Of a stretch of DNA of 64,000 nucleotides, positions 4,310 to 64,000 are shown piece by piece. The DNA lies in contig JBBIVF010000001.1 of the NCBI GenBank assembly GCA_037439845.1, positions 1,842-65,841 of the forward strand. The letters are read 5' to 3'. A program made the position numbers and the translations under genes. The DNA comes from Candidatus Woesearchaeota archaeon (GTDB taxonomy: Archaea > Nanobdellota > Nanobdellia > Woesearchaeales > JBBIVF01). The first letter of the stretch is position 1, and the number at the start of each line of letters is the position of its first letter. The notes beneath the pieces are model-generated. The model had not been told where the DNA came from. It was given only the letters and a program-made list of their open reading frames with translations, and did not search any database.

Positions 4310-4334
4310 CTAAACACCTCCTTTCCTAAGTCAA

Positions 4335-5462: not shown

Positions 5463-5595
5463 TATAAGCTATCTTTAAAAAATAGTATATTTAAACTTTT
5501 CTAAAATGATATTTAAAGTTTACTGTTAAAATTTACTGCTTAGAATAAAAGAGTTTTTGACGATAAAAAATATTTAGTATTGTTGAGTGATAAAG

Positions 5596-6585
5596 TTAAC
5601 TAGGAATCTTTGTTATTCTTGTTCCTGTTGTCCAGGTTTGGGTATAACCATAATCGAATTTTACTATTAAAGGAGAAAGGAAAGACCTTCTTGAGGCAAG
5701 CTCATTTTCCTGAAAACGTTCTGTCCAGCATCTTGTCTTGCCTATATTGTCCTTTATCAAAATATCCTGAGGAGAACAAATTAGTGGCTTGCCCATAAAT
5801 GTGCCATTGAAATGCACAATGTTTATTGTAGACCTGTTGATTGGTTGATTTGAACATGCTTTTTGGATGTCATATATATTCAAAACAGTACCTTCTGCAT
5901 AATTTGTTAATTCAATATAAAATTCTGGCCTGTATGTTGTGTCCCAAGGCAATATTCTTACATCTATCAATGAAACTCCAATAGGTGCGCCTTGACCTGA
6001 AAATTTAAGGGGTTGAAATTCACACACTCCTTTTGTTACTTTAGTAGAATCTGCTGAATCCAAATTCACGCAAATATCAGCAACAAGATATGTAGAGTAA
6101 TCATAGCATGCAGTCACTCTGAACTTCACATCATGATAAAAAGAAAGATTTTCTAATTTTTTTGTCTGAAATCTGAGTATTGCTGTTTCTTCCTGGCCTT
6201 TTTTCTCATATAATGTCTTTCCTGCCAAAGAAAAAGGAACCAATTTGTCTTTTGTTATTGGGGTTTTGGCATAGGTGCCATTATTGAAGATCACATAATC
6301 TTTTTCTGTACCAATACCGAAATATCCGTTTGTTATGTTGAATGCTCCTATGTTTTCTAAATCGAATATTAACTGTATTTCCTGTTGTTCCATAACTTCT
6401 TCTGGAGGTGCATTTGGCATAAAATTCAATTCCAAACCTCCTTTTCCTGAATACAATTGTTTTATCATTCTATCAATTTCTGTAGGAGAAAGAATTGTAT
6501 CTTTTTTTTGGCATGAGCTAAGAATAAGTAAGCTAATTATCAATGCTAGGATTATTGCTTTTTTTATTATTTTCTGATTAATCAT
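5596..6585 (-). CDS. Secreted lipoprotein, paralog 3 of 3
   Basis: Signal peptide with LSSCQKK lipobox. Motifs GGLELNFMPNAPPEEV and VTACYDYSTYLVADICVNLD. Confidence 0.6.
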   Translation of the reverse strand: MINQKIIKKAIILALIISLLILSSCQKKDTILSPTEIDRMIKQLYSGKGGLELNFMPNAPPEEVMEQQEIQLIFDLENIGAFNITNGYFGIGTEKDYVIFNNGTYAKTPITKDKLVPFSLAGKTLYEKKGQEETAILRFQTKKLENLSFYHDVKFRVTACYDYSTYLVADICVNLDSADSTKVTKGVCEFQPLKFSGQGAPIGVSLIDVRILPWDTTYRPEFYIELTNYAEGTVLNIYDIQKACSNQPINRSTINIVHFNGTFMGKPLICSPQDILIKDNIGKTRCWTERFQENELASRRSFLSPLIVKFDYGYTQTWTTGTRITKIPS

Positions 6586-9623: not shown

Positions 9624-10805
9624 TCATTCTATCAGTCGTATCTGTAATGTTAAAATATCAAGCCGTGTTCTTGGAACTATTTCAAGAGCATTGTTGCCTA
9701 ATCTTATGTATTGATTTATTATCTTAGAATATATTCTCTCGTCCTGATTAAGATTGGTTTCGATGCCGTTGATAATCAATTTAGCACTTTTTTGGGATTC
9801 TTCATCCACAAATTCTATGTATAATTCAATATCATATGTATTGTCAATAATACTGTTAAGTGTATCTAAGTCTATGTTGAAGAAATAAACTGGATTGACT
9901 ACTTGCTTCAGTTCATTCTTGATGACTACTTGGTCAAGCAAGAAAGTGCCTTTTGTTGCCTTGAATTCAATATAATTCTCGTTTTCCTTTAGTATCAATG
10001 GAGAGAACTCTATCAATACAGGAGATTTGCAGTCAGGCACTCCTGAAAATATCTCTTTGTCATTTATAGCAATACTCAGTGCACTCACTTCTGCTTCATT
10101 GCACTCTGGTATAAACCTTAATGCAGAGCTTTTTATGTTCTTGAGTTGTGATGATTGAATCAAAAACAGATTCTTTGAGGTTTGCTTAGAGATGTCAGTT
10201 ATGTCAGCCACTATCTTTAAGTCATTGACATCAAATTCATTTTTTAGCCAGAATCTCCACCCGACCTTATCTGTTTTGAATTTCAATGTATTCTGCTCTT
10301 TAAGCATTGCTTTCGGAAGCTCTATTGGATCAACATAGCCTTTTGTTATTCTTGCATTGAATATCTCTTTGCCATTAAGTTCAATTATCATTCTGCCTTT
10401 TGATGCTCCTACATTGAATGTCATCAATACATTATTTGTGTTAGGCAAGTCTTTTATCTCAAGACCTATGATTTTTTCATTTGTGTCAAAGAATGAATCT
10501 GAAATATAGAAAGGAGCAAAAGTCTTCAGCACTTGTGGCTCTGTGCTTGTGTATAACCTTATAGGATTCAATGCAATATTTTTTGAGGTCTCTCTTGTAA
10601 CATCAATTGTGCCTGGATGCTCTAGTAAAAGAACCTTGGCAGTAACATTTGTGTGGGGTGTTGGGGTTGTGCCTGTTGTCGGACCTAGAAGCTCTTCTCT
10701 TGCTTCAGGCGGAATGAACAAAAGATATAAAATAATTATCAAAGCTATAACAACAACCAAACTTGCTGCGCTGGTGCCAGAAGGCTGGGCTTTCTTGTTT
10801 TTCAT
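9624..10805 (-). CDS. N-terminally anchored extracellular protein, first gene of the surface cluster
   Basis: 393 aa. N-terminal KKAQPSGTSAASLVVVIALIIILYLLFIPP hydrophobic anchor followed by a Thr/Pro linker. Co-directional with 6602..9580, 43-bp gap. Confidence 0.5.
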   Translation of the reverse strand: MKNKKAQPSGTSAASLVVVIALIIILYLLFIPPEAREELLGPTTGTTPTPHTNVTAKVLLLEHPGTIDVTRETSKNIALNPIRLYTSTEPQVLKTFAPFYISDSFFDTNEKIIGLEIKDLPNTNNVLMTFNVGASKGRMIIELNGKEIFNARITKGYVDPIELPKAMLKEQNTLKFKTDKVGWRFWLKNEFDVNDLKIVADITDISKQTSKNLFLIQSSQLKNIKSSALRFIPECNEAEVSALSIAINDKEIFSGVPDCKSPVLIEFSPLILKENENYIEFKATKGTFLLDQVVIKNELKQVVNPVYFFNIDLDTLNSIIDNTYDIELYIEFVDEESQKSAKLIINGIETNLNQDERIYSKIINQYIRLGNNALEIVPRTRLDILTLQIRLIE

Positions 10806-13875: not shown

Positions 13876-14244
13876 TTGATTAAGAGTTTGATTAAGCATA
13901 TGAATATCAAACAAAACAAAAAGAACAAGAATCTCTTTAAAGTCGAAAGTTCAGAAAAAGGCAACTTTTATGATGTTGATCTTGAGAAGAAGACATGTAC
14001 TTGTATGCATTTCTTGCTAAGATTGAGAAATACCGGACAACTTTGTAAGCACCTTTTAGCAGTTCAGGAAAAGTTTGGAGTAATGAAAAAAGAGAAAAAA
14101 GAGAGTATTTTGAAATATCTGGAAAAGAGGAAAGAGATTGATTCTATCGAATTGATTGAGAAATTTGGTGAGAGAGTAGTAAATGAAGCATTGAAAAATG
14201 GCATTATTATTGAAGAAAAAGGCAGAATTAAGCTCCTAAAATGA
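13876..14244 (+). CDS. SWIM-type zinc-finger protein
   Basis: CTCMHFLLRLRNTGQLCKH fits the SWIM pattern CxCx(n)CxH. Confidence 0.5.
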   Translation: MIKSLIKHMNIKQNKKNKNLFKVESSEKGNFYDVDLEKKTCTCMHFLLRLRNTGQLCKHLLAVQEKFGVMKKEKKESILKYLEKRKEIDSIELIEKFGERVVNEALKNGIIIEEKGRIKLLK

Positions 14245-19601: not shown

Positions 19602-21135
19602 TTATTTATCCCACTTCTTTATTTCTCTTAATTGCTTGAGGTCGTTTGAGTAGAGGTCCCTTATGTCTGTTATCTGGAAGTATTCCATTAGTTGTCTGTC
19701 AAGACCAGGGCCCCATGCCAATACAGGAACCCATTCTCCTAAAAGAGGCACAACTACTTCTGGTCTGAATATGCCTGCTCCTCCGAGTTCTATCCATTTC
19801 TTATGCACAGGATGAAATACATCTATTTCAACACTGGGTTCTGTATAGGGAAAATGTGCTGGCCTGAATCTTGCCTGAGGATATCCTATTTTTTTAAAAA
19901 ATTCTTTCAAGTAGCCCAAGAGATGCCTGAAATTGGCATTCTTATCCACTACTATGCCCTCAAATTGATTAAACTCAAAAAGATGGCTCCAATCAAGTGT
20001 TTCATTCCTAAAATTCCTGCCTACTGCAAAGAATTTCTTTGGCAGGTCTTTTAATTGCAATGATGCTAATGTTCTTGCACTTAGTACTGTTGTGTGTGTC
20101 CTCAGCACATTTTTTTTTTGCTTCTTCTGGATTCCATTTATATTGCCAGCCTGTGCTTCCTGTTGTTCCGCCATTCTCATGCGCATTCTTGACTCTTTCT
20201 ACAATTTTCTTGTCTGGCAAAATGCCTTTTTCAGGATCTTTGATAAAGAATGTATCTTGCATCTCTCTCACAGGATGGTCTTGGGCTGTAAAAAGAGCAT
20301 CAAAGTTCCAAAAACTTGTTTGAGTATATGCACCATTCATTTCCTCAAAACCAAACTCTAACCAAACTCTTTTGGCATAATCTGCCACATCAAGAACAAA
20401 ATGCCTTTTTGCTCCTGTTATTTTTGGCACATTAATTTTCACATCATATCTTCTGAACTCTTTTCCTTTCCAAGAGCCTGACTTGAGCATTTCTGGAGTA
20501 ACTGCATCAATGATTTCTTTATTTTCAATCTTTTGGCTCAATAATTGTCTGCATATTTCACTGGGAATCGCGATTATTGTCCTTAGTGATGTTTTCTTAA
20601 CTATTGACCTTCTTTTTGATAATTCTGTGAAAGCAAATGTCTGTTCTGGTGTTAAGTATTTTGGATCCACAGGAGATTTAGCAAGCAGGTCAAGAAGCTC
20701 TTCTTCAAATGACCTTTTTGTCAATATCTCTCTACCATAATCAGTTATCTTTATCTTTTTGCTTTCCAAAATTTCTATTGCCATCTTCTTTTTCAGCGTG
20801 CCAATAGAAACTGCTATCTCTTGTTCATTGAGTCCTTTTTTCAAGAGCTCCTCTTGAGTCAATGCTGCTTTTTCAATAGCCTTCAGAAAAACTTTTTCTG
20901 GCAGCCCATTTTTTTGGTATCTTTTTCCATTTTCATCAAGTTCAATAAGCTCTTTCTCCTGTTTTTCTATTTTTATTATTTCCTTGTTCGAGAGCCATTG
21001 CAATGCCCTCATTACTTCTACTTCACTCAGACCTGACTTTTGCTCTAGCTCTTTGACAGAAATCTGTTTAGTGAGATAAGGTAATATTCTTCTTTCAAGA
21101 GGATGCAATGAATTAACAAGTGTTTTGATGTCCAT
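19602..21135 (-). CDS. pheS: Phenylalanyl-tRNA synthetase alpha subunit, interrupted by an apparent 1-nt frameshift at an A10 run (20110-20119)
   Basis: Track ORFs 20008..21135 (N-terminal wHTH domains up to ...WNPEEAKK) and 19602..20186 (...KKNVLRTHTTVLSARTL...FRNE...GAGIFRPEV core) overlap in different frames. Deleting one A from the A10 run gives a continuous WNPEEAKKNVLRTHTT. Confidence 0.8.
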
Positions 21136-49946: not shown

Positions 49947-50495
49947 ATGGATGAGAGCATTAAAAAAAATGTTAAGGTTGTGAATATAGTTGTTTCAAGT
50001 TCACTTGAACACGATATTCCTTTGGAAAAAGTTGCTGCAACATTATCTAATACAGAATACAATCCTGAACAATTTCCTGGATTAGTAATAAGAATAAAAG
50101 AACCAAAAACTTCTGCTCTCATTTTCAGTTCTGGAAAGATTGTGTGCACTGGTGCGAAATCCCTTGACAAAGTAGAAGAATCAATCCAGACAATAATCAA
50201 AAGTTTAGAAAAGATTGGCATACATATTAAGATTAAACCGAAAATTGTTGTGCAGAACATTGTGGCTGCAGGTAACATAAATATGGACCTAAATCTGAAC
50301 ACACTTGCAGTCAAGCTTGAAAACACAGAATATGAACCAGAACAATTCCCTGGTCTTGTCTATAAGCTGGCAGAAGCTAAAGCTACATTCTTGTTATTCT
50401 CAAACGGCAAGATAGTCTGCACAGGAACAAAGAGCGAAGATGAAGTATATACTGCATTGGATATGCTCATTGAGAATCTCAAGAAAGTAAAATAA
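49947..50495 (+). CDS. tbp: TATA-box binding protein
   Basis: Two direct repeats with the NxEYNPEQFPGLV(I/Y)(R/K) signature. 182 aa. Confidence 0.9.
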   Translation: MDESIKKNVKVVNIVVSSSLEHDIPLEKVAATLSNTEYNPEQFPGLVIRIKEPKTSALIFSSGKIVCTGAKSLDKVEESIQTIIKSLEKIGIHIKIKPKIVVQNIVAAGNINMDLNLNTLAVKLENTEYEPEQFPGLVYKLAEAKATFLLFSNGKIVCTGTKSEDEVYTALDMLIENLKKVK

Positions 50496-50570: not shown

Positions 50571-52592
50571 ATGTTAAATGTCAATGAACAAATAAGAAGG
50601 TTTAATGAATTTGTTGAAAAATATTATCTTGACACTTTATTAGAAAATGTCAGAAAGGGCAACAAGTTCCTAAAAGTGGATTTCTTGTTGTTGTCAAAAT
50701 ATGACCCTGAGCTTGCAGAAATTATATTTGAACAACCTGAAGAAGTCTTTAAGGCATTTGAGATTGCTCTTCTTCAATTTGATTATGCTCAAAAACCAGA
50801 TTATGTCAGGGTAAGATTCTATAATCTTCCTCCTTCTTCTTACATAGATATCAGAGACATAAGAGCAAAGGAAATAAACAAATATTTTTATGTAGAGGGA
50901 GTTGTAAGGCAAAAATCTGAAATAAGGCCGCAGGTCACGAGCGCGAGGTTTGAATGTCCTAGTTGCGGCAATATAATGAATGTTCTTCAACTAGATAAGA
51001 AGTTCAAAGAACCATCAAGATGTCCTTGCGGAAGAAGCGGAAAATTCAGGATGATTTCTAAAGAGCTGGTGGATGTGCAAGGACTAGACATAGAAGAAGC
51101 GCCTGAAAATCTCATTGGTGGAGAGCAGCCTAAAAGAATCAAGGTTTTCTTGAAAGAGGACCTTGTTAGTCCAATGTCAGACAAGAAAACAAACCCAGGA
51201 ACAAAGATAAGAGTATTTGGAATATTGAAAGAGGTGCCGATTGTGCTGCAGACAGGAGGCCAAAGCACAAGATTTGACTTGATTATTGAAGCAAATGAGA
51301 TAGAGCCAATCGAGGAGGATTTCGGAGAGCTGGCAATAGATGAGAAAACAAAACAAGAGATTCTTGAATTGAGCAAAGACCCTAAAATCATTCAAAAACT
51401 CATAGACAGCATTGCTCCAAGTATATATGGCCATGAAAGAGTGAAAGAGGCGCTTGTACTTCAATTGTTCGGAGGAGTTAGAAAACAGAGGTCTGATGGA
51501 GTTGTTTCCAGAGGAGATATGCACATCCTTCTCGTCGGAGACCCTGGAAGCGGTAAGAGTCAGTTGCTCAAGAGAACTGCTATTGTTGCACCTAAAGCGA
51601 GATTTGTTTCTGGAAAGGGAGCTTCTGGAGCTGGAATTACTGCAAGCGTTGTCAAGGACGAGTTTCTTAAAGGATGGACACTAGAGGCAGGAGCGCTTGT
51701 TCTTGCACACAAAGGTATGTGCATGATAGACGAGCTTGACAAGATGTCAAAAGAAGACAGGGCTGCGATGCACGAGGCACTTGAGCAGCAGACAGTAACA
51801 ATTTCAAAAGCGAATATTCAAGCCACTTTACGATGCGAGACAACTGTGCTTGCAGCAGCAAATCCAAAGTTCGGAAGATTCGATCCTTTTGAGCTTATTG
51901 CAAAACAGATCGACCTGCCTCCTTCTTTGATAAACAGGTTTGACCTTATTTTTCCGATAAAAGACCTTCCTGACAAGGACCGGGATGATACAATGGCTTC
52001 ATTCATACTCAATATTCACCAGACAAAAAAGACAGGAGATGCAGAAATCAAAACAGATCTTCTTAGAAAATATATTGCATTTGCCAGGCAAAATATTGTT
52101 CCTAGTTTGACTGACAGCGCAGTGCAGGAGATAAAATCATATTATGTCACATTGAGGAGTTCTGGCTCTGATGAAGGAGGAATAAAAAGCGTGCCTATTA
52201 ACGCAAGACAGCTTGAAGGATTGATAAGATTGGCAGAAGCTTCAGCAAGAGCAAGATTATCTGATAAGGTGACGAAAAAAGATGCGAAAAGAGCTATTGA
52301 GTTGCTTGATTTTTGTTTGAGACAGATAGGAGTTGACCCTAAAACAGGAAAACTTGATATTGACAGAATAAGTTCAGGAGTAACTGCATCTGAAAGGTCC
52401 AAAATTTCTGTTGTCAAACAGATAATAGCAGAGCTTGAAGAAAAGCTTGGAAAACAAATACCTATTAAAGAGCTTGTGATAAATGCTGATGAAAAAGGCA
52501 TAGACTCTGCAGAAGTAGAGGATATAATAGAGAAATTGAAAAGGTCAGGAGACATATTCGAACCCGAAAGAGGATTAATACAGAGGTTATAA
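50571..52592 (+). CDS. mcm: MCM replicative helicase
   Basis: C4 Zn finger CPSCGN...CPCG. Walker A GDPGSGKSQLL, Walker B IDELDKM, arginine finger SRFD and a C-terminal wH. 673 aa, no intein. Confidence 0.9.
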   Translation: MLNVNEQIRRFNEFVEKYYLDTLLENVRKGNKFLKVDFLLLSKYDPELAEIIFEQPEEVFKAFEIALLQFDYAQKPDYVRVRFYNLPPSSYIDIRDIRAKEINKYFYVEGVVRQKSEIRPQVTSARFECPSCGNIMNVLQLDKKFKEPSRCPCGRSGKFRMISKELVDVQGLDIEEAPENLIGGEQPKRIKVFLKEDLVSPMSDKKTNPGTKIRVFGILKEVPIVLQTGGQSTRFDLIIEANEIEPIEEDFGELAIDEKTKQEILELSKDPKIIQKLIDSIAPSIYGHERVKEALVLQLFGGVRKQRSDGVVSRGDMHILLVGDPGSGKSQLLKRTAIVAPKARFVSGKGASGAGITASVVKDEFLKGWTLEAGALVLAHKGMCMIDELDKMSKEDRAAMHEALEQQTVTISKANIQATLRCETTVLAAANPKFGRFDPFELIAKQIDLPPSLINRFDLIFPIKDLPDKDRDDTMASFILNIHQTKKTGDAEIKTDLLRKYIAFARQNIVPSLTDSAVQEIKSYYVTLRSSGSDEGGIKSVPINARQLEGLIRLAEASARARLSDKVTKKDAKRAIELLDFCLRQIGVDPKTGKLDIDRISSGVTASERSKISVVKQIIAELEEKLGKQIPIKELVINADEKGIDSAEVEDIIEKLKRSGDIFEPERGLIQRL

Positions 52593-53278
52593 TGATGGAA
52601 GAGGTTCAAAAAAGACAAATCGCGTACAAAACAAATATAACTAATATTGTGTCAGGAAGATTTGTCAGACAAGAGGGTTGGCTACCTAATTATATTATTG
52701 ATAATGATAATAATATGCTCTCCCGGGTGAATGTGCTAGGAGTTATAGTGTCTAAAGACAATATGCCTGAGGATAATTTTAGCGCAGTAACTATTGACGA
52801 TGGTTCTGCTAAAATACAGGTTCGTGATTTTGATAAAGAGAAAATGAATGATTTTGAAGTAGGAAATGTGGTTAATATTATCGGAAAAATAAGAGAATAT
52901 GCTGGCAATGTGTATATTTTTCCTGAAATAATGAAAAAATTGGATGATAATAGGTGGATATTAGTTAGAAAAAAAGAAATTGAGAAATTGAAAAAATTAG
53001 GGGTGTATGAAAAATATCAAGAACAAGAAACCAAAGTCATGAAAGAAGAGACATTTATCCAGGCAAAAGAAGAAGAGAATATTGAAGAGAGTGTTGATTC
53101 AGGAGAAAGCAGGAAAATATATGAACTAATTAAGACACTTGATAATGGAGATGGTGTTGATATAGATGTCGTGATAAAGGAATCTGGAATGAATAATTCA
53201 GAAAGCATCATACTTGAGCTTTTAAAAAATGGTGAAGTTTTTGAACTGAAACCAGGACGTATCAAGGCATTAGAATAA
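52592..53278 (+). CDS. OB-fold plus C-terminal winged-helix protein, translationally coupled to mcm (RPA32/Stn1-like architecture)
   Basis: Start overlaps the mcm stop (ATGATGG). OB-fold-like segment VNVLGVIVSKD...AVTIDDGSAKIQVRDFD...VGNVVNIIGKIREYAGNVYIF. C-terminal wH-like IYELIKTLDNGDGVDIDVVIKESGMNNSESIILELLKNGEVFE. Confidence 0.5.
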   Translation: MMEEVQKRQIAYKTNITNIVSGRFVRQEGWLPNYIIDNDNNMLSRVNVLGVIVSKDNMPEDNFSAVTIDDGSAKIQVRDFDKEKMNDFEVGNVVNIIGKIREYAGNVYIFPEIMKKLDDNRWILVRKKEIEKLKKLGVYEKYQEQETKVMKEETFIQAKEEENIEESVDSGESRKIYELIKTLDNGDGVDIDVVIKESGMNNSESIILELLKNGEVFELKPGRIKALE

Positions 53279-54112
53279 AATCGGTGTTATGTATACTTCT
53301 AATATTGCTGCTATAAATAAAAGTATCAAGGAAATTGCCAGCAATGTTCCTGCATCTCCCATAATATTCTTGAAATTCTTTTTTCTATAGTCGTGATTGA
53401 CAACTGCAAAAGATATTATGCCGCCTGATAATCCTGCTATGAAATAAGAGGCCATTTCAGGTATGCCATGTAGCGCATATTTCAGCAAGGCAAAAGAAAT
53501 TATGGAGAAATAACTAGATATTTTGCTGAAACCAACAAGCTCAACTATCTTGGCAAGTTCTATCCTTATGAAATTTCCTATGACTGTACCCAGCACTGTT
53601 GCGTTCCAGATCAATATGAATATGGCTCCAATTCCATAAAGCAAAGAAAATAAAACACAGAGCAGCAGGACTCTGAGATTGTTGAAGAATATCTTGAACA
53701 ACAATCCTGATTTAATTGCTGCTGCGTTTATACTTGTTAGGGTGTTTGATTGTGCTGAAAAAACACTGAATACTATATTTTCAGGCAATATCACATACCA
53801 GAAAGCTGTTGCGAGCACAAAACCTATAAACATCCAGATAAAGAAACTTATTGCTTTCATGTGCTCTTTCAGCATCTTAGGCTCTTTTGTTGTTTTCGTG
53901 TCTTTTTTTTCTTCTAATCTTATTACTCTGTACATAATCGGGAATGCAGCGAAGACTGCGAGAAAAACAGTTACCATTGATGCCTGTGACCTAAATATCC
54001 AGTAACTTAAGAAAATAGCAATAGTCATATAAAGAAAACTCAAGAACATCATACTATATGGCTTCTTCTCAGCAAGTATTGGATTTATTATTGATTCAAA
54101 AACCATAACCAT
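53270..54112 (-). CDS. Polytopic membrane protein (DUF95/SpoIIM-like?)
   Basis: 280 aa, 6-7 TM helices. Confidence 0.4.
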   Translation of the reverse strand: MVMVFESIINPILAEKKPYSMMFLSFLYMTIAIFLSYWIFRSQASMVTVFLAVFAAFPIMYRVIRLEEKKDTKTTKEPKMLKEHMKAISFFIWMFIGFVLATAFWYVILPENIVFSVFSAQSNTLTSINAAAIKSGLLFKIFFNNLRVLLLCVLFSLLYGIGAIFILIWNATVLGTVIGNFIRIELAKIVELVGFSKISSYFSIISFALLKYALHGIPEMASYFIAGLSGGIISFAVVNHDYRKKNFKNIMGDAGTLLAISLILLFIAAILEVYITPILF

Positions 54113-56905: not shown

Positions 56906-57050
56906 CTTTAATCGGGTTTTTTTTGGTTCTTTTAAAAAGTTTTCTAATACTGAAACACCATATGTCCTTTGTTTCGTGTGGAGGTGAAATTTTAGAAAAG
57001 AGTAGTTAGAACAGAGTAGTCTGGTTTTATTCAGTGAATATTTAGTGAAT

Positions 57051-57190
57051 TATAAGTAAAAGTTTATATTATTATAAGTAAAAGTTTATTATAAGTAAAA
57101 GTTTATATTATTATAAGTAAAAGTTTATATTATTATAAGTAAAAGTTTATTATAAGTAAAAGTTTATATTATTATAAGTAAAAGTTTATA
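57051..57190. repeat. Seven tandem copies of the 17-bp core TATAAGTAAAAGTTTAT, spaced 22/17/22/22/17/22; candidate origin-recognition (ORB-like) repeats
   Basis: Core ATAAGTAAAAGTTTAT starts at 57052, 57074, 57091, 57113, 57135, 57152 and 57174. It lies about 630 bp upstream of orc1/cdc6, next to a stretch that is more than 85% AT. Confidence 0.8.
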
Positions 57191-57199
57191 GAGGGTGTT

Positions 57200-57560
57200 T
57201 TGTGATTTCTATAAGGAAGGTGGTTTTTTGAAAAATAATGATTTTTTGTTTGGATTTGGTTTTTTATTGATTTTTATTTTTTTATTATTTATTTAATTTT
57301 TATTTTTAGTTTTTATTATATTTTTTTAGTTGATTTAACAATATGTTAGTTTTTATTCTTTTAATATTAATTTTATTTTTCAATGTTAGTTTTATTTTTA
57401 ATATTAAACATATTTTTATTTCATTTCATAATTTTCCATATAGAAACCAAATTTTTCGAACATGACAAAAATAAAAAAATTTCTTAGAATTTTGTTTAAT
57501 TTTACTTGAAAAAATGATTATTTTCTATATTTTTTCGTTAAAAAATTAATTTATTGAATA
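57200..57560. other. Extremely AT-rich stretch; candidate DNA unwinding element of oriC
   Basis: Almost pure A/T runs (tttttattgatttttatttttttattatttatttaattttt...) between the tandem repeats and orc1/cdc6. Confidence 0.4.
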
Positions 57561-57786
57561 ATTATTTAAAATACACTTTATTAAAAACAAAAGAGATGAT
57601 AAAAATCAAAAGACTCTGATATCACTTCAACACCAAAAAATTCAAATATTTCCAAATGAAATAGAGGTGTGTTGGTGTCTAAATCTGAAATCTAATGGCT
57701 AAATTAAAAAGGCGCTATAAACTATATATTCTATTATAATAAGGATTATTTCACAATGACAACAATTTAATCCCTCAAAACAAACA

Positions 57787-57794
57787 TTTATATA
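57787..57794 (+). promoter_or_regulatory. Putative TATA box (tttatata) for orc1/cdc6, consistent with a leaderless transcript
   Basis: The octamer ends 25 nt upstream of the ATG at 57820. Typical archaeal TATA-to-TSS spacing would put the TSS at or near the start codon. Confidence 0.3.
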
Positions 57795-57819
57795 CCTCTG
57801 TTTCGAATGGAAAAATCTC

Positions 57820-59058
57820 ATGAATAACGAAAAACCCAAAATCTCTGATTATTTTGAATCATTCATCAAAAAAACACCTATTTTCTTGGATAAAAAGGTA
57901 CTTCAAGCACCCTATATGCCAGAAAATATTCCTCACAGAGATAATGAAGTGCAAAAAATCGCAAACATACTTGCGCCTGTCTTAAGAATGGAAAAACCTT
58001 CAAATCTTTTCATATATGGAAAAACAGGGACCGGAAAGACACTATCTGTAAAGCACGTCTCCAATGAAATCCTCAAAATTGCTCAAAGAGAAAATATCAA
58101 TGTGAAAATATTCTATATTAATTGCAAATTGAAAAAAGTAACAGACACAGAATATAGATTACTGGCTCATCTTGTCAGTGGTTTCGGAAAAGAAATACCT
58201 CCAACAGGATTGCCTACTGATGAAGTATATAACATTTTTTTCAAGCTGCTTGATTCTGAAAAACAACTTGTAATATTGGTGCTGGATGAGATAGATCAAT
58301 TATATAAGACCGGAAATGAAATACTATATAATCTAACCAGGATAAATTCAGAGTTAAAAAATTCACAATTATCCATTGTAGGAATATCAAATGACCTGAC
58401 ATTCACCGACTCATTAGATCCAAGAGTAAAATCATCATTATCGGAAGAGGAGATAATATTTCCGCCATACAATGCAATCCAGCTTCAAGACATACTTTTC
58501 CAGAGAGCGAAATATGCATTCAGAGAAAACTCAATAACAGAAGGAGTAATTCACAAATGCGCGGCATACGCTGCAAGAGAACACGGAGATGCGAGAAGAG
58601 CACTTGAGCTTCTGAGAGTAGCAGGAGAATTGGCAGAAAGAGAAGGCTCTGATATTGTTCAATTAAAACACATAGATGAGGCAGAAGAAAAAATAGAGAA
58701 AGACAGGGTAATCGATATAACAAAGACACAACCAAAACAATTCCAGGCAACACTTTTCGCAATTCTCAGCATTGAAAACAAACAAAAAAACGACAAGCTA
58801 TCAAAACACAACAAACCAGCAATATATACAGGAGATGTCTATGACCTCTATAAAAGCATATGCGACAAGATAGGATTGAGACCCCTGACACAAAGAAGAG
58901 TGTCTGACATCCTCGCCGAGTTAGATATGATGGGAATAATCAATGCAAAAGTAATATCATATGGAAGATACGGCAGGACAAGAGAAATAACCGTATCATT
59001 GTCTCAGCAAGTGAGAGAAAATATAGAAAAAAACCTAAAGCAAGAACTCCATCTTTAG
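57820..59058 (+). CDS. cdc6: Orc1/Cdc6 replication initiator
   Basis: Walker A GKTGTGKT, Walker B LDEID and sensor motifs. C-terminal winged helix. 412 aa. Confidence 0.9.
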   Translation: MNNEKPKISDYFESFIKKTPIFLDKKVLQAPYMPENIPHRDNEVQKIANILAPVLRMEKPSNLFIYGKTGTGKTLSVKHVSNEILKIAQRENINVKIFYINCKLKKVTDTEYRLLAHLVSGFGKEIPPTGLPTDEVYNIFFKLLDSEKQLVILVLDEIDQLYKTGNEILYNLTRINSELKNSQLSIVGISNDLTFTDSLDPRVKSSLSEEEIIFPPYNAIQLQDILFQRAKYAFRENSITEGVIHKCAAYAAREHGDARRALELLRVAGELAEREGSDIVQLKHIDEAEEKIEKDRVIDITKTQPKQFQATLFAILSIENKQKNDKLSKHNKPAIYTGDVYDLYKSICDKIGLRPLTQRRVSDILAELDMMGIINAKVISYGRYGRTREITVSLSQQVRENIEKNLKQELHL

Positions 59059-59081: not shown

Positions 59082-60521
59082 ATGAAAAAGAAAGAGATAA
59101 TTCAAGAGCTATTGAAAAAAGGCATTCTGATTTCAAAAGACCTTGAGGAAGAGGATTTCAATTTCATAGACCAAGAAAAATTAAACATCATTATCGCAAA
59201 CAATCCATTCATTCTGGACAAAAAATTACTTTTTTCCTTGTTTCCGGAAAAACAAGCACAGGGCAATTTCGAGATAGTAATGAATTATACCAAAACACCT
59301 GTCAAAAGAGAGATATCTCACTTTATTCAACATTTCGAGAAAAGATTTGAGGCAATAAAGAAAATATTAATGCAAAGAGACGAGCTCCAGAACATATTAT
59401 CAATAAATAGAATCTTCACAAAAGGTCAAAAAGAGCAGGTGGCGCTGATAGGGATGGTATATAACAAGCAGACAACAAAAAACGAGAACATAATACTCGA
59501 AATCGAGGACAAAACAGGCGTGGCAAAAGTGCTGGTCAATAAAAGCAAACCCGAATTACATAAAGAGGCAAAGGATATTGTGCTTGATGAAACCATAGGT
59601 GTTGTCGGCAGTATCGGAAACGGAATACTATTCGCGAATGAAATATATTTTCCAGATATTCCCACAACAAAAGAGCTTAAAAAAGCGCCTGAAGAAGTAT
59701 ATGCTCTTTTCCTGTCTGATACTCATGTAGGCAACAAAAAATTCCTGAAAGAGGAGTTCTCAAGGTTTTTGGACTGGCTTAATCAAAGAATAGGAGATGA
59801 AAATCAGAAGAACGTGGCATCAAAAGTCAGATACATATTCATCACAGGAGACCTTGTTGAGGGCGTCGGATATTATCCCAACCAAGAGAGTGAATTAGAC
59901 CCTGAAACGCCGGATATCAAGGCCCAGTATTCAAAACTTGCCTTTTATCTCAGCCAAATTCCGGAAAATATCACGATTTTCATATGCGCAGGAGACCACG
60001 ATGCCATGAGAATAGCACAACCCCAAGCACCTCTGTATGATGATTTCGCAGAAGACCTGTATAAAATAAATAATGTAAAAATACTCTCAAACCCATCTAT
60101 TGTCACAATACATAAAACACAAAAATTTCCAGGAATAGATGTGCTTCTTTATCACGGATACTCATTTATTTATTATTCAGACACAGTAGAAAGCATAAGG
60201 TCGCAAGGAGGTATGGAGAGAGCAGACCAAATAATGAAATTCCTGTTGAGAAGGAGGCATCTTTCACCCACTCATTCTGCCTCACTTTACATACCTGACC
60301 CGGAAAAAGATTATCTTATGATTGAAAAGGTTCCTGACATTATAACTTCTGGCCACATACACAAAGTTACCATCTCCAACTACAGAAACGTGTCTTTACT
60401 AAACAGCTCCTGCTGGTTGCCTTTGACAGATTATCAGGAAAAAAGAGGAATAAACCCTCATCCTGCGAGAGTGCTGTGCATGAATCTCCAGACAAGAGAA
60501 ACAAAGGTGCTCAGGTTTTAA
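59082..60521 (+). CDS. polD1: DNA polymerase II (PolD) small subunit DP1
   Basis: 479 aa. OB domain then a calcineurin-like phosphoesterase domain (LFLSDTHVG, ITGDLVEG, GDHD, GHIH). Confidence 0.85.
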   Translation: MKKKEIIQELLKKGILISKDLEEEDFNFIDQEKLNIIIANNPFILDKKLLFSLFPEKQAQGNFEIVMNYTKTPVKREISHFIQHFEKRFEAIKKILMQRDELQNILSINRIFTKGQKEQVALIGMVYNKQTTKNENIILEIEDKTGVAKVLVNKSKPELHKEAKDIVLDETIGVVGSIGNGILFANEIYFPDIPTTKELKKAPEEVYALFLSDTHVGNKKFLKEEFSRFLDWLNQRIGDENQKNVASKVRYIFITGDLVEGVGYYPNQESELDPETPDIKAQYSKLAFYLSQIPENITIFICAGDHDAMRIAQPQAPLYDDFAEDLYKINNVKILSNPSIVTIHKTQKFPGIDVLLYHGYSFIYYSDTVESIRSQGGMERADQIMKFLLRRRHLSPTHSASLYIPDPEKDYLMIEKVPDIITSGHIHKVTISNYRNVSLLNSSCWLPLTDYQEKRGINPHPARVLCMNLQTRETKVLRF

Positions 60522-60522
60522 A

Positions 60523-63500
60523 ATGAAAGAATACTTTGATGCAATAAATTCAGGAGTAATAGAGCAATTTAAGATAGCACAGAAAGCCAGAGAAAAAAAA
60601 CTCGACCCAGAAGACTATGTGGAAATACAATTAACAAAGAACATGGCTGAAAGGGTTGTAGGATTGATATCTGTGATTGCTCCTCAAATAAAGGATTCCG
60701 GTGTTGTGGAAAGGATAATAGAACTGGAAAAAGAATTCGGAATATTGGACTGGAGAGTGTGCCTGCAAATAGCTTTGGAGATAGCGCAGCAGAAATACTG
60801 CAAGTTCAATGACCAGAAAGAAGCAATTGAAGTAGGAATCAGAACAGGATTCGCATACTCAACAGTCGGAGTGGTATCTTCTCCTATAGAAGGATTCACC
60901 CATATTGATATCAAAGACAGATACGATAGAAAAGGAAAATATTTTTGCATAAATTTCGCAGGGCCGATAAGAAATGCAGGAGGAACAAATGCAGCCCTGT
61001 GTGTGCTTATCGCAGATTATGTCAGGAAAAAACTCGGATTTAGCAAATACGACCCTAATGAGCAAGAGATAAAGAGATGTTATACTGAATTATGCGATTA
61101 TCATGAGCGCGTTACTAATTTACAATATTTTCCGTCTGAAGAGGAGACAATTTTCTTGATGAAAAACATACCGATTGAAATAGGAGGCGAGCCTTCAGAA
61201 AAGGTTGAAGTATCCAACTATAAAGACATACCCAGAATACCAACAAATTACCTGCGTTCAGGATATTGCCTGCTACATTCTTCCTGTATTCCGCTAAAAG
61301 CACCCAAACTTTGGAAACAAATTTCTAAATGGGGAAAAGAATTTGATATGGATGACTGGAATTTTTTAGGCGAATTCTGCGAATTACAGAAAAAGATGAA
61401 GACAATGAAAAAACTCAATTCAGAAGAATCAAAATCAGAATCAATTTTGACACCTTCTTACACATATATTGCGGACATTGTAGCAGGAAGGCCTGTGCTT
61501 TCACATCCTCTTGCCTCAGGAGGACTAAGGCTGAGATATGGCAGGGCAAGAACAACAGGATACTCTGCTTGCGGACTACATCCTGCAACAATGCTTGTAT
61601 TGAATTCATTTATAGGAAACGCAACTCACATAAAACTTGAAAGACCGTCGAAAGGAGCTGCTATTACCTCTTGCTCAACGATTGAAGGACCGATAGTTAA
61701 ACTAGAAAACGGCAATGTAATATTTCTAGAAACAGAAGCACTGGCAAAACAACATAAAAAAGAGATAAAAGAAATACTTTATCTAGGAGACATATTAATT
61801 TCATACGGAGATTTCTTTAACAGGGCACATCCTCTTGTTCCTGCTGGATATTGCGAAGAATGGTGGATAAAAGAATTTGAAAAGGCCTGTGTGACACTTT
61901 TTGGCACATTAGATTTCAGCAAATTAGCTGAATTTTTGTCTATTGATGAAAGTACAATAAATAAAATATACAAAAAATACATGATAATAAAACCATCAGC
62001 AGAAGAAGCATTGACAATCTCAAAAAAAATGAACATTCCATTACATCCTTATTATACATATCATTTTTCACAAATATCTATTGAGAAAGCTGTTGAATTA
62101 CTTGAAGCGCTAAGAAACTCCACTATACAAGATGAAAAACTAATAATGAAAAATGAACCTCAAGTAAAAAGGGCACTAGAAATAATCGGAGTTCCTCATA
62201 TAAATGCCTCAAATGAATTCATTGTCATAGAAAAGCCTCATTCAAAAATAATCTTCTCTAATCTTATTTTATCAACCCAAAAAATTGATAATATCAAAAA
62301 AACTATCCCTCAATTCAACAACACAATAGATTTTCTTAATAGTTTTCTCGAGTATAAGATAAGAGACAAATCAGGAACATTTATAGGAGCGAGAATGGGG
62401 CGGCCAGAAAAAGCAAAAATCAGGAAGCTAAAAGGCAACCCTCATGGATTGTTTCCAGTAGGTGCTGAAGGAGGAAGAATGAGGTCGTTTCAGGCAGCAA
62501 TGCAAGCAGGAAAAGTAAGGTCTGATTTTCCTATCTTTTTTTGCAATAAATGTGAAAAGGAGACTATTTTTAAAATATGTGAAGAGTGCAGAACAGAGAC
62601 AACGCAAAAATATTATTGTGACCTGTGCGGAATTATTGACACAAAAACATGTGCTCATGGAAATGCAAAACCATTCCGAAAAAAAGATATCGATATAAAC
62701 AATTACATAAATAATTGCCTAGATAAATTGCAGATGAAAACTGCACCTGACTTGATAAAAGGAGTGAAAGGCACTTTCTCAGATGAGCATGTTCCAGAAC
62801 ATCCAATAAAAGCAATATTAAGAGCAAAACACGAGTTATATGTGAATAAAGACGGAACAGTAAGGTATGATTCCAGTGAAGTGCCAATAACACATTTCAA
62901 ACCAAAAGAGATAGGAGTAAGTATAGAGAGATTAAAATCATTGGGTTATGAAAAAGACATCAAAGGAGCGCCTTTGGAAGAAGAGGACCAAATACTTCAA
63001 CTTCTGCCTCAAGACATAATATTACCTTGCTCTCCTGAATCTCCTGATGAACCTGCTGACGAAATTTTATTCAGAACAGGATTGTTCATAGACGAGCTTT
63101 TAGAGAAATTCTACGGACTGCCAGCATTCTATAATTTCAAAAGCAAGGAAGATCTTGTTGGAGTGCTTGTTCTTGGCTTGGCGCCGCATACCTCTGCGGC
63201 TGCTGTCGGAAGAATAATTGGTTTTTCTAAGACACAAGGATTTTTAGCACATCCTGTTTTTCATGCTGCAATGAGAAGAGACTGCGATGGAGATGAAAGC
63301 TGTATTCTGTTGGTTATGGACGCTTTCCTGAATTTCTCAAGAAAATATCTGCCTGGAAAAAGAGGCTCTACAATGGATGCACCTCTTGTGGTGACACCCG
63401 TGATAAACATACAGGAAGTAGATGATATGGTTTTTGACCTTGATATTGCTTATTCTTATCCTCTTGAGTTATATACTGCTGCTTTAGAATTCAAAAAACC

Positions 63501-64000
63501 CTGGGATGTGAAAGTCAAGCAGATATCCTCTGTGTTATTGAACGAGAACCCATATTTAGACCTGGGTTTCACGCACGATACTGAAAATCTCAATATGGGC
63601 GTGCTTTGTTCCGCGTATAAAAAAATACCTTCCATGGAAGACAAGATGAAATCGCAGATGGAATTGGCAGAAAAAATAAGAGCAGTTGATGAAAATGATG
63701 TTGCCAGGCTGGTCATAGAAAAACATTTTTTAAAAGATATCAGAGGAAATCTTAGAAAATTCTCACAGCAAAAATTCAGATGCTCAAAATGCAATGAGTC
63801 ATACAGAAGGCCTCCTTTACTTGGAGCGTGCCTGAAATGTAACGGCAATATTATCTTCACGATTTCTGAAGGATTCATAACAAAGTACCTTGAACCCTCG
63901 TTATCTCTTGCCAAGAAGTATGCAATTCCAGAGTACCTGAAACAGACATTAGAACTCACAAAAAGGCTGGTTGAAGGAAATTTCGGAAGAGAAAAAGAAA
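60523..64000 (+). CDS. polD2: DNA polymerase II (PolD) large subunit DP2, 5' portion; continues beyond the window
   Basis: ATG at 60523, 1 nt after the DP1 stop. The open frame runs to the window end. FCINFAGPIRNAGGTNAA and the Zn finger CSKCNESYRRPPLLGACLKCNG are DP2 hallmarks. It is missing from the ORF track only because no stop codon falls within the window. Confidence 0.85.
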   Translation, partial: MKEYFDAINSGVIEQFKIAQKAREKKLDPEDYVEIQLTKNMAERVVGLISVIAPQIKDSGVVERIIELEKEFGILDWRVCLQIALEIAQQKYCKFNDQKEAIEVGIRTGFAYSTVGVVSSPIEGFTHIDIKDRYDRKGKYFCINFAGPIRNAGGTNAALCVLIADYVRKKLGFSKYDPNEQEIKRCYTELCDYHERVTNLQYFPSEEETIFLMKNIPIEIGGEPSEKVEVSNYKDIPRIPTNYLRSGYCLLHSSCIPLKAPKLWKQISKWGKEFDMDDWNFLGEFCELQKKMKTMKKLNSEESKSESILTPSYTYIADIVAGRPVLSHPLASGGLRLRYGRARTTGYSACGLHPATMLVLNSFIGNATHIKLERPSKGAAITSCSTIEGPIVKLENGNVIFLETEALAKQHKKEIKEILYLGDILISYGDFFNRAHPLVPAGYCEEWWIKEFEKACVTLFGTLDFSKLAEFLSIDESTINKIYKKYMIIKPSAEEALTISKKMNIPLHPYYTYHFSQISIEKAVELLEALRNSTIQDEKLIMKNEPQVKRALEIIGVPHINASNEFIVIEKPHSKIIFSNLILSTQKIDNIKKTIPQFNNTIDFLNSFLEYKIRDKSGTFIGARMGRPEKAKIRKLKGNPHGLFPVGAEGGRMRSFQAAMQAGKVRSDFPIFFCNKCEKETIFKICEECRTETTQKYYCDLCGIIDTKTCAHGNAKPFRKKDIDINNYINNCLDKLQMKTAPDLIKGVKGTFSDEHVPEHPIKAILRAKHELYVNKDGTVRYDSSEVPITHFKPKEIGVSIERLKSLGYEKDIKGAPLEEEDQILQLLPQDIILPCSPESPDEPADEILFRTGLFIDELLEKFYGLPAFYNFKSKEDLVGVLVLGLAPHTSAAAVGRIIGFSKTQGFLAHPVFHAAMRRDCDGDESCILLVMDAFLNFSRKYLPGKRGSTMDAPLVVTPVINIQEVDDMVFDLDIAYSYPLELYTAALEFKKPWDVKVKQISSVLLNENPYLDLGFTHDTENLNMGVLCSAYKKIPSMEDKMKSQMELAEKIRAVDENDVARLVIEKHFLKDIRGNLRKFSQQKFRCSKCNESYRRPPLLGACLKCNGNIIFTISEGFITKYLEPSLSLAKKYAIPEYLKQTLELTKRLVEGNFGREKE

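What the first reader, a model, noticed from the sequence alone, without database searches (positions are those of the whole stretch)
52592..53278. OB-fold/winged-helix protein translationally coupled to MCM
The ORF starts inside the mcm stop (ATGATGG) and has an OB-fold-like core followed by a wH-like tail. That is the RPA32/Stn1-like architecture, whereas the usual mcm neighbour in archaea is a GINS subunit. It may be a lineage-specific MCM or ssDNA-binding accessory factor.
Basis: inference. Interest (0 to 1): 0.5.

Follow-up and report, generated by a model that had tools for sequence, protein, structure and literature searches.

The report
RPA32 (Rpa2) gene coupled to mcm
The gene just after the replicative helicase gene mcm encodes an ordinary middle subunit (Rpa2/RPA32) of the archaeal single-stranded-DNA-binding protein RPA; the only unusual point is that in this group of tiny DPANN archaea it sits in a conserved operon with mcm instead of next to the other RPA subunits.

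Summary
ORF 52592..53278 (+, 228 aa) is real, and its ATG shares one base with the mcm stop codon (TAATG). A GAGG Shine-Dalgarno-like motif lies 5 nt upstream.

The protein belongs to the Rpa2/RPA32 family. Its best solved relative by sequence is Pyrococcus abyssi RPA32 (E 6e-13), which is also the best fold match (Foldseek E 5e-12). A confident AlphaFold model (pLDDT 87.6) shows an OB barrel, a C-terminal helix, an acidic disordered linker and a winged-helix (WH) domain.

The family is large: 2,759 clusters at 50% identity. In Woesearchaeota/Nanoarchaeota genomes, mcm lies directly upstream in 37 of 49 non-redundant loci, and the gap is 11 nt or less in 24 of them. The block TBP-mcm-rpa2-(SpoIIM) is syntenic, and PolD and cdc6 are often nearby.

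Most likely this is the Rpa2 subunit, co-transcribed and translationally coupled with MCM. It would bind ssDNA and recruit primase and PolD through its WH domain, as shown in P. abyssi. The partner subunits Rpa1 and Rpa3 were not found in the DNA I could search.

This is a new member of a known kind with a lineage-specific gene arrangement. Interest is modest.

The parts
49947..50495 (+). TBP gene, upstream member of the syntenic block TBP-mcm-rpa2
   Evidence: Pfam TBP E 1.2e-60. A TBP gene lies upstream of mcm in most related loci.
50571..52592 (+). mcm, the replicative helicase gene, 673 aa including a C-terminal winged helix
   Evidence: Pfam MCM_N, MCM_OB, MCM, MCM_lid and MCM_WH_arc.
52583..52586 (+). 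GAGG Shine-Dalgarno-like motif inside the 3' end of mcm, 5 nt before the rpa2 ATG
   Evidence: Sequence. SD-like motifs are enriched upstream of window genes: 13/49 against 8% at random positions.
52590..52594 (+). TAATG stop/start overlap between mcm and rpa2 (1-nt overlap)
   Evidence: Related loci have gaps of -4 to +11 nt in 24 loci.
52592..53278 (+). rpa2 (RPA32-family) gene, 228 aa
   Evidence: phmmer against PDB: P. abyssi RPA32 E 6e-13, yeast Rfa2 E 3.8e-7. Foldseek top hits are 8aaj_B, 8c5y_B and 8aas_B.
52658..52942 (+). OB-fold domain (residues 23-117), equivalent to RPA32 DBD-D / P. abyssi OB-3
   Evidence: AF2 strands with pLDDT 89-98. Pfam PF01336 in 22/22 family members and RMI2 in 16/22.
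52952..53005 (+). Helix 121-138 after the OB domain, at the position of the RPA trimerisation helix
   Evidence: AF2. The alignment to P. abyssi RPA32 runs through residue ~155. Family-wide conserved PEIMKK..D.KW..LRK.EL.
53006..53098 (+). Acidic, low-confidence linker (residues ~139-169)
   Evidence: pLDDT 48-59. Residues 139-172 hold 12 D/E against 4 K, counted from the sequence. Linker length varies among homologues.
53099..53269 (+). C-terminal winged-helix domain (residues 170-226)
   Evidence: AF2 H-H-H-beta-beta with pLDDT 94-97. Pfam RPA_C in 2/22 homologues, best E 1.1e-6. hhalign to the MCM WH profile gives 96% probability.
53270..54112 (-). SpoIIM-family membrane protein gene, convergent, overlapping the rpa2 3' end by 9 nt; a conserved syntenic neighbour
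   Evidence: Pfam SpoIIM E 7.4e-16. It lies downstream of rpa2 in most loci, including those without mcm.
57820..59058 (+). orc1/cdc6 gene (context: replication island)
   Evidence: Pfam Cdc6_lid and Cdc6_C.
59082..60521 (+). PolD small subunit DP1 (context)
   Evidence: Pfam DNA_pol_E_B, Metallophos and OB.
60442..64000 (+). PolD large subunit DP2, an open frame that runs off the window end (context). DP2 is the known partner of the Rpa2 WH domain in P. abyssi.
   Evidence: An open frame of more than 1,170 codons. tblastn with it finds the regions called PolC_DP2 in related loci.

Best explanation
The ORF encodes the Rpa2 (RPA32) subunit of archaeal Replication Protein A in a Woesearchaeota/Nanoarchaeota-type DPANN archaeon. 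Shown here: it has the full Rpa2 anatomy, namely an N-terminal KRQxAxK segment, an OB fold, a post-OB helix, an acidic flexible linker and a C-terminal winged helix. It also lies in a conserved mcm-rpa2 gene pair with a stop/start overlap and an SD-like motif. Inferred: mcm and rpa2 are transcribed on one mRNA, and ribosomes finishing mcm re-initiate on rpa2. The helicase and the ssDNA-binding/adaptor subunit would then be made together. By analogy with P. abyssi RPA: the OB domain binds ssDNA released by MCM, the helix joins a trimerisation core with Rpa1 and Rpa3, and the tethered WH domain recruits primase (PriS) and PolD (DP2) to RPA-coated template. The PolD and cdc6 genes lie a few kb away in the same replication island.
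For: Sequence: phmmer against PDB hits five P. abyssi RPA32 constructs at E 6e-13 to 9e-12 over residues 2-155, and yeast Rfa2 at 3.8e-7. Pfam OB PF01336 scores above its threshold. Across 22 homologues the OB matches in 22/22, RMI2 in 16/22, RPA_C in 2/22 (1.1e-6) and Stn1 in 2/22.

Structure: the AF2 model has pLDDT 87.6 and shows an OB barrel, helix 121-138, a disordered acidic linker and a WH domain. The Foldseek top hits are P. abyssi RPA32 (5e-12), human RPA32 and STN1; no GINS appears.

Gene order: mcm is directly upstream on the same strand in 37 of 49 non-redundant loci spread over the whole Rpa2 tree, with a gap of 11 nt or less in 24. Loci where rpa2 has lost mcm instead carry TTATAA about 30 nt before the ATG, which looks like their own TATA box.

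Function: the SD-like GAGG is reported. DP2 lies within 6 kb in 24/45 species-level loci, and cdc6-DP1-DP2 are in the window. P. abyssi Rpa2 binds ssDNA on its own (PMC10122647), and its WH domain binds PriS and DP2 (PMC11686378). The FE of the wing motif, which aligns with E259 of the PriS interface in the GEIYEPETG motif of P. abyssi, is nearly invariant in this family as F217 and E218.
Against: No Rpa1 (Zn-finger OB) or Rpa3 gene was found. Pfam and NCBIfam scans of about 55 window ORFs found none, and a family HMM search of the window and 56 related loci (about 0.5 Mb) found none either. The heterotrimer is therefore inferred, not shown.

In other archaea RPA32-like genes sit next to RPA41 homologues (PMC2643942); here they never do.

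The residue aligned with E261 of P. abyssi Rpa2, which is shared by the PriS and DP2 interfaces, is K/R in this family, so the interfaces may differ. No transcript data exist. ssDNA binding was not tested.
Confidence: 0.8

Rival explanations
1. An Rpa2-derived adaptor that works with MCM. In these reduced genomes the protein would be uncoupled from Rpa1/Rpa3 and bind the MCM hexamer directly. It would hold the emerging strand and bring primase and PolD to the helicase.
For: The operon is tight, ancestral and often translationally coupled, a pattern typical of physically interacting partners. Rpa1 and Rpa3 are never adjacent and were not found in about 0.5 Mb of related DNA. The Rpa2 WH profile is specifically similar to the WH domain of the neighbouring MCMs: hmmsearch E down to 2e-6 and hhalign 96% probability, E 3.9e-9, with a shared GDIFEPxxG wing. 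P. abyssi Rpa2 alone can bind ssDNA.
Against: The post-OB helix and flanking residues are strongly conserved, as expected for a trimerisation-core interface. About a quarter of loci have lost the mcm linkage yet keep the gene intact with its own promoter-like TATA box. TBP and SpoIIM are equally syntenic without being replisome partners. No interaction test could be run. WH similarity may only reflect common WH ancestry.
Confidence: 0.12
2. It is a normal Rpa2, but the adjacency to mcm has no mechanistic meaning beyond shared regulation: a frozen gene order within an origin-proximal replication island.
For: The linkage has been lost several times without loss of the gene. Gaps of 26-162 nt occur, and insertions of 0.8-1.6 kb occur in two loci. 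Non-replication genes (TBP, SpoIIM, aIF2-beta) are also syntenic.
Against: Gaps of -4 to +11 nt persist in 24 loci whose Rpa2 proteins are only 31-44% identical to the window protein, which argues that selection keeps the pair co-translated.
Confidence: 0.25
3. It is a divergent GINS subunit (Gins23/Gins51), the classical mcm neighbour.
For: Position next to mcm only (PMC2643942).
Against: No GINS family appears in Pfam or NCBIfam. The AF2 fold is OB plus WH, and none of the top 50 Foldseek hits is a GINS protein.
Confidence: 0.01
4. It is a Stn1-like (CST) or RMI2-like protein rather than an RPA subunit.
For: Foldseek hits to STN1 at 4.5e-9 to 1e-7. Pfam RMI2 matches 16/22 members and Stn1 matches 2/22.
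Against: The closest relative by both sequence and structure is archaeal RPA32. The protein has one WH domain, whereas Stn1 has two. I did not check for CST or RMI partners, which to my knowledge are not described in archaea, and the linear telomeres CST serves are not expected in archaea (established knowledge). These hits reflect the common RPA32-type OB superfamily.
Confidence: 0.02

Closest known systems
Pyrococcus abyssi / Thermococcales Rpa2 (RPA32); PDB 8AAJ, 8AAS, 8C5Y, 9F26
   Same: Same domain order: a conserved N-terminal segment (KRQxA.. here, KKRMPA.. in P. abyssi), an OB fold, a post-OB helix, an acidic flexible linker and a C-terminal WH domain with a G(E/D)(I/V)(F/Y)E wing. It is the best hit by sequence (E 6e-13) and by fold (E 5e-12).
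   Different: About 25% identity. The Thermococcales gene sits in an rpa1-rpa3-rpa2 three-gene cluster, whereas here it follows mcm and no Rpa1 or Rpa3 is nearby. The residue equivalent to E261, part of the PriS and DP2 interfaces, is K/R here. The protein is shorter (228 against 268 aa).
Eukaryotic RPA32 (human RPA2, yeast Rfa2)
   Same: OB (DBD-D), trimerisation helix, linker and WH architecture. Yeast Rfa2 scores E 3.8e-7, and human RPA32 is among the top Foldseek hits.
   Different: It lacks the N-terminal phosphorylation region of eukaryotic RPA32, and identity is only 13-23%.
COG3390 RPA-associated proteins (e.g. Haloferax RPAP1/RPAP3)
   Same: An RPA32-related OB-fold protein of Euryarchaeota that is encoded in an operon with a replication gene.
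   Different: COG3390 genes lie in tandem with an RPA41/Rpa1 homologue (PMC2643942). The protein here lies after mcm and carries a WH domain.
Stn1 of the CST complex
   Same: RPA32-type OB followed by WH, and a role in recruiting a primase-polymerase.
   Different: Stn1 has two tandem WH domains and telomere-specific partners. The similarity here is weaker than to RPA32.
mcm-gins23 (and mcm-aIF2beta) gene clusters of Crenarchaea and Thermococcales
   Same: A small replisome gene is kept directly next to mcm. aIF2-beta is also nearby in several related loci here.
   Different: The partner gene here is rpa2, not a GINS gene, and the fold is unrelated.

Membership tests
Rpa2 / RPA32 (middle subunit of RPA) | RPA32-type OB fold (DBD-D / OB-3) | tested here: met
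   Pfam PF01336 E 1.4e-7, above its cut-off. RMI2-type OB in 16/22 homologues. phmmer to P. abyssi RPA32 E 6e-13. Foldseek E 5e-12.
Rpa2 / RPA32 (middle subunit of RPA) | Alpha-helix directly after the OB domain, which forms the three-helix trimerisation bundle | tested here: met
   AF2 helix 121-138 with pLDDT ~95, within the stretch that aligns with P. abyssi RPA32. The region is highly conserved in the family. Bundle formation itself was not tested.
Rpa2 / RPA32 (middle subunit of RPA) | Flexible linker followed by a C-terminal winged-helix domain | tested here: met
   Linker pLDDT 48-59, with 12 acidic residues among the 34 residues 139-172. WH domain H170-183, H191-198, H203-213, E216-220, E223-226 with pLDDT 94-97. 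Pfam RPA_C in 2/22 homologues, best E 1.1e-6.
Rpa2 / RPA32 (middle subunit of RPA) | Partner subunits Rpa1 (Zn-finger OB) and Rpa3 encoded in the same genome, usually adjacent in archaea | tested here: inconclusive
   Neither was found in the 64-kb window or in the flanks of 56 related loci. Whole genomes could not be searched with these tools.
Rpa2 / RPA32 (middle subunit of RPA) | Binds ssDNA; WH domain binds primase or polymerase | not testable with these tools
   Known only by analogy with P. abyssi (PMC10122647, PMC11686378).
GINS (Gins23 / Gins51) | Helical A domain plus small beta-rich B domain; Sld5/GINS Pfam signature | tested here: not met
   No GINS family hit. The AF2 fold is OB plus WH, and none of the top 50 Foldseek hits is a GINS protein.
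Stn1 (CST complex) | OB fold followed by two tandem WH domains, with Ctc1/Ten1 partners | tested here: not met
   Only one WH domain in the model. STN1 hits are weaker than RPA32 hits. Partners were not searched for.
COG3390 RPA-associated protein | RPA32-related OB protein encoded in tandem with an RPA41/Rpa1 homologue | tested here: not met
   The upstream gene is mcm, or thyX or others in unlinked loci, and never an Rpa1-like gene. The family definition is from PMC2643942.
Crenarchaeal-type SSB | Single OB fold with a flexible acidic C-terminal tail and no WH domain | tested here: not met
   A folded WH domain ends the protein. The top sequence and structure hits are RPA32, not SSB.

The most novel reading that the evidence does not exclude
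In Woesearchaeota-type DPANN archaea, Rpa2 may have left the RPA heterotrimer and become an MCM-associated subunit. It would be made in fixed proportion with the helicase through translational coupling. It would capture the extruded strand with its OB domain and use a WH domain homologous to MCM's own WH to hand primase and PolD onto the fork. This would be a minimal helicase-SSB-polymerase coupling device in reduced genomes.
Probability: 0.12. Interest if true: 0.6.

Novelty: new member of a known kind. Interest (0 to 1): 0.3.

Why it matters
The result assigns a function to a gene that public annotation mostly labels as hypothetical: sources name the homologues 'hypothetical protein' or only 'RPA family protein'. 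The family has more than 2,700 sequence clusters in DPANN archaea.

It also documents a gene arrangement I did not find in the literature I searched. In other archaea, mcm pairs with gins23 or aIF2-beta, and rpa32-like genes pair with rpa41. Here mcm and rpa2 form an ancestral, often overlapping pair inside an origin-proximal island that also holds cdc6 and PolD.

If the pairing reflects physical contact, it would point to direct coupling of helicase and SSB in a minimal archaeal replisome. If it does not, it is simply a clean example of co-regulation of replisome parts.

Tried and rejected
1. GINS identity was rejected: no family hits and an OB+WH fold.

2. Search for Rpa1, Rpa3 or GINS in the window. 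Pfam on about 55 ORFs, NCBIfam on ten unannotated ORFs, PDB phmmer on three and a family HMM on all ORFs found nothing. The same HMM on 1,816 ORFs from 56 loci found only Rpa2, the MCM WH domains and one MBF1-like HTH protein.

3. The gene upstream of rpa2 in the unlinked clade was checked as a possible Rpa1. It is thyX in L033 and unannotated proteins in L001.

4. P0120, a 327-aa homologue, was checked for an informative fusion. Its N-terminal extension looks like a mis-called start; other long homologues only have longer linkers.

5. Pairwise BLASTP of the window's own Rpa2 WH domain against its MCM WH domain gave no alignment. The similarity appears only at profile level.

6. The search for related loci with the full 22-sequence alignment failed because no conserved stretch was long enough; an 8-sequence subset worked.

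7. The afdb50 fold library was not available.

8. Literature searches for RPA in Woesearchaeota/DPANN found nothing specific. Makarova & Koonin 2013 is not held.

Full report
OBSERVATION

The mechanical ORF list places a 673-aa ORF at 50571..52592 (+) and a 228-aa ORF at 52592..53278 (+), exactly the coordinates reported.

The sequence at the junction is ...acaGAGGttaTAATGATGGaa. The mcm stop TAA occupies 52590-52592 and the ATG 52592-52594, so the two genes overlap by one base. A second ATG follows directly. GAGG (52583-52586) lies 5 nt upstream of the ATG.

This organism uses such motifs only partly. An SD-like tetramer occurs at -16..-6 before 13 of 49 likely genes, against 8% of random positions. 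TBP, mcm and the target ORF all have one.

The upstream gene is a complete archaeal MCM with the Pfam domains MCM_N, MCM_OB, MCM P-loop (E 3.9e-90), MCM_lid and MCM_WH_arc.

WHAT THE PROTEIN IS

- Pfam finds an OB fold (PF01336) at residues 46-112, E 1.4e-7, above the curated cut-off. NCBIfam has no model for the protein.
- phmmer against all PDB sequences hits five constructs of Pyrococcus abyssi RPA32 (8aas_B, 8c5y_B, 9f26_C, 8oej_B, 8aaj_B) at E 6e-13 to 9e-12 over residues 2-155. Next come yeast Rfa2 (6i52_B, 3.8e-7), then P. abyssi RPA14 and human STN1 at non-significant levels.
- An AlphaFold2 model built on 22 homologues has mean pLDDT 87.6. It shows a beta-barrel between residues 23 and 117, helix 121-138, a low-confidence stretch (pLDDT 48-59) and a compact C-terminal domain. 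That domain (H170-183, H191-198, H203-213, E216-220, E223-226; pLDDT 94-97) has the winged-helix topology.
- Counted from the sequence, residues 139-172 hold 12 acidic and 4 basic residues.
- Foldseek against the PDB ranks P. abyssi RPA32 first (E 5e-12). Human RPA32 in NER and Pol-alpha complexes, STN1 and the RPA14/32 crystal structures follow. None of the first 50 hits is a GINS protein.
- Across the 22 homologues, Pfam matches the OB in 22, RMI2 (an RPA32-type OB) in 16, RPA_C in 2 (best E 1.1e-6) and Stn1 in 2.

FAMILY AND CONSERVATION

The word-indexed protein search found 22 relatives at 30-43% identity. All come from metagenomes or MAGs labelled Nanoarchaeota or Woesearchaeota. The sources call them 'RPA family protein' or 'hypothetical protein'.

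The exhaustive profile search found 2,759 representative clusters at E<=1e-3, of which 1,120 reach E<=1e-30. This is a large family, not a rarity.

The alignment shows several conserved blocks:
- an N-terminal KRQxAxK segment, matching KKRMPATR in P. abyssi;
- the DDG(S/T)G loop;
- PEIMKK..D.KW..LRK.EL around the post-OB helix;
- a WH domain ending in G(D/E)(I/V)FE(x)xPGRxKxLE.

Longer homologues differ only in linker length, as expected for a flexible tether.

GENOMIC CONTEXT

I fetched loci around ten homologues and around 45 species-level representatives of GTDB, then mapped the window's proteins onto them with tblastn.

- After removing duplicates, mcm lies directly upstream on the same strand in 37 of 49 scorable loci.
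- The distance from the mcm stop to the rpa2 ATG is -4 to +11 nt in 24 loci. It is 26-162 nt in about ten, and it is interrupted by 0.8-1.6 kb in two.
- In a neighbour-joining tree of the Rpa2 proteins, linked loci cover the whole tree, including the deepest branches. Nine of the twelve unlinked loci form one clade. The linkage is therefore ancestral and was lost secondarily.
- The unlinked genes typically carry TTATAA about 30 nt before the ATG. This looks like their own TATA box for a leaderless transcript. It fits the idea that the tightly linked genes depend on the mcm promoter.
- TBP upstream of mcm and a convergent SpoIIM-family gene downstream of rpa2 are also syntenic. In the window the SpoIIM gene overlaps the rpa2 3' end by 9 nt.
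- aIF2-beta and PolD genes often follow. DP2 is within 6 kb of rpa2 in 24 of 45 species-level loci, a lower bound because many contigs are short.
- The window also carries orc1/cdc6 (57820..59058), DP1 (59082..60521) and an open DP2 frame running off the end. RFC-small, PCNA, Hef and HerA are present too.

COMPARISON WITH WHAT IS KNOWN

Berthon et al. 2008 (PMC2643942) report the usual neighbours. In Crenarchaea and Thermococcales mcm neighbours gins23 and/or aIF2-beta. The three RPA genes are clustered in Thermococcales. In most other Euryarchaeota an RPA32-related gene (COG3390) lies in tandem with an RPA41 homologue. An mcm-rpa2 pair is not described there, nor in Raymann et al. 2014, nor in the other papers I could search.

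For P. abyssi, Madru et al. 2023 (PMC10122647) show that:
- Rpa2 OB-3 contributes to the ssDNA channel of the trimerisation core;
- Rpa2 alone binds ssDNA;
- trimerisation is through a three-helix bundle of C-terminal helices.

Martinez-Carranza et al. 2024 (PMC11686378) show that the Rpa2 WH domain, tethered by an acidic linker, binds PriS and the DP2 subunit of PolD and stimulates primer extension (the 'WH-bait' model). The linker, WH domain and wing motif are all present here.

I aligned the P. abyssi motif GEIYEPETG with GEVFELKPG of the window protein. On that alignment, the position corresponding to E259 of the PriS interface is the nearly invariant E218. The position corresponding to E261 is K or R in this family, so the interfaces need not be identical. 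This residue numbering is my inference from the alignment.

MOST LIKELY MECHANISM

The shown steps are the protein's identity, its domain anatomy, the conserved overlapping operon and the SD-like motif.

The inferred steps are as follows:
- mcm and rpa2 are co-transcribed and translationally coupled, so helicase and Rpa2 are produced together.
- Rpa2 binds the ssDNA produced by MCM.
- Rpa2 assembles with Rpa1 and Rpa3 through helix 121-138.
- Its WH domain recruits primase and PolD.

I put about 0.9 on membership of the Rpa2 family. I put about 0.75 on co-transcription and coupling with mcm. I put about 0.6 on function within a classical heterotrimer.

THE MAIN GAP

I could not find Rpa1 or Rpa3. 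Pfam scans of the window ORFs, NCBIfam scans of ten unannotated ones and PDB searches of three found none. The family HMM found no second OB protein in the window or in the 56 loci then fetched, about 0.5 Mb.

Whole genomes could not be searched, so absence is not established. This leaves room for the rival that Rpa2 works with MCM directly.

One further observation bears on that rival. The Rpa2 family HMM repeatedly hits the C-terminal WH domain of the neighbouring MCM proteins, with E down to 2e-6. A profile-profile comparison of 52 Rpa2 WH domains with 36 MCM WH domains gives 96% probability and E 3.9e-9 over 52 columns, with a shared GDIFEPxxG wing. The two WH domains of the window itself do not align by BLASTP. 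Other WH proteins in the window (TrmB, TFE-alpha, HTH_11) were not hit. This shows a common origin of the two WH domains. It does not show an interaction.

VERDICT

It is an Rpa2/RPA32 orthologue, not a new kind of protein. What is new is a conserved, lineage-specific mcm-rpa2 operon in Woesearchaeota/Nanoarchaeota-type archaea, with the other RPA subunits elsewhere or missing. Interest is modest at 0.3. It would rise if Rpa1/Rpa3 prove absent or if an MCM-Rpa2 complex is shown.

Noticed in passing
window 56906-57819, especially 57033-57193: The 0.9-kb AT-rich gap upstream of orc1/cdc6 holds about seven tandem copies of TATTATAAGTAAAAGTTTA, with alternating 22 and 17 nt spacing, plus several inverted repeats. 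With cdc6-DP1-DP2 immediately downstream this looks like the replication origin, about 4.5 kb from mcm-rpa2.
   Followed up: partly
window 53099-53269 and 52371-52589; related loci L003-L056: The Rpa2 WH domain and the C-terminal WH domain of the adjacent MCM are homologous at profile level (hhalign 96%, E 3.9e-9), with a shared GDIFEPxxG wing. Other WH proteins in the window are not hit.
   Followed up: partly
window 19602-21135 (-): The PheRS alpha subunit is split into two overlapping ORFs: 20008..21135 carries Pfam tRNA-synt_2d positions 2-76 and 19602..20186 carries positions 77-245. This indicates a frameshift, either an assembly error or a genuine disruption. The orthologue in L009 is a single 508-aa protein.
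   Followed up: no
L031, L036, L037, L040, L053: In several related genomes the MCM tblastn match spans 3.2-6 kb instead of 2 kb, which suggests intein insertions in mcm.
   Followed up: no
L001, L020, L021, L025, L028, L029, L038, L041, L055 (about 30 nt upstream of rpa2): Where rpa2 is not tightly linked to mcm, TTATAA(G/A)AA lies about 30 nt before the ATG. This looks like a TATA box driving a leaderless rpa2 transcript. L020 still has mcm upstream, but at a 145-nt gap.
   Followed up: partly
L033 4623-5996: In one unlinked lineage a 457-aa ThyX (thymidylate synthase) gene overlaps the start of rpa2 by 11 nt. So rpa2 is again joined to a DNA-synthesis gene.
   Followed up: partly
L003 171-2283: A Toprim protein and a fused PriS-PriL primase (505 aa) lie three genes upstream of TBP-mcm-rpa2 in one Woesearchaeota MAG. 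Primase is the known partner of the Rpa2 WH domain in P. abyssi.
   Followed up: no
window 59082-60521 and 60442-64000: The open DP2 frame contains an in-frame ATG 80 nt before the DP1 stop, so DP1 and DP2 may overlap. Alternatively DP2 may start at a later codon.
   Followed up: no
window 3320-6585 (-) and 9624-10805 (-): Three paralogous-looking secreted or lipoprotein-like proteins of 329-375 aa and a 393-aa protein have no Pfam or NCBIfam match. They lie next to a 992-aa protein with an SLT transglycosylase domain.
   Followed up: no
window 13876-14244 (+): A small protein has a SWIM zinc finger plus a C-terminal WH-like tail (…NGIIIEEKGRIKLLK) that resembles the Rpa2/MCM wing motif. It was the weak second hit of the Rpa2 HMM (E 0.11).
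   Followed up: no
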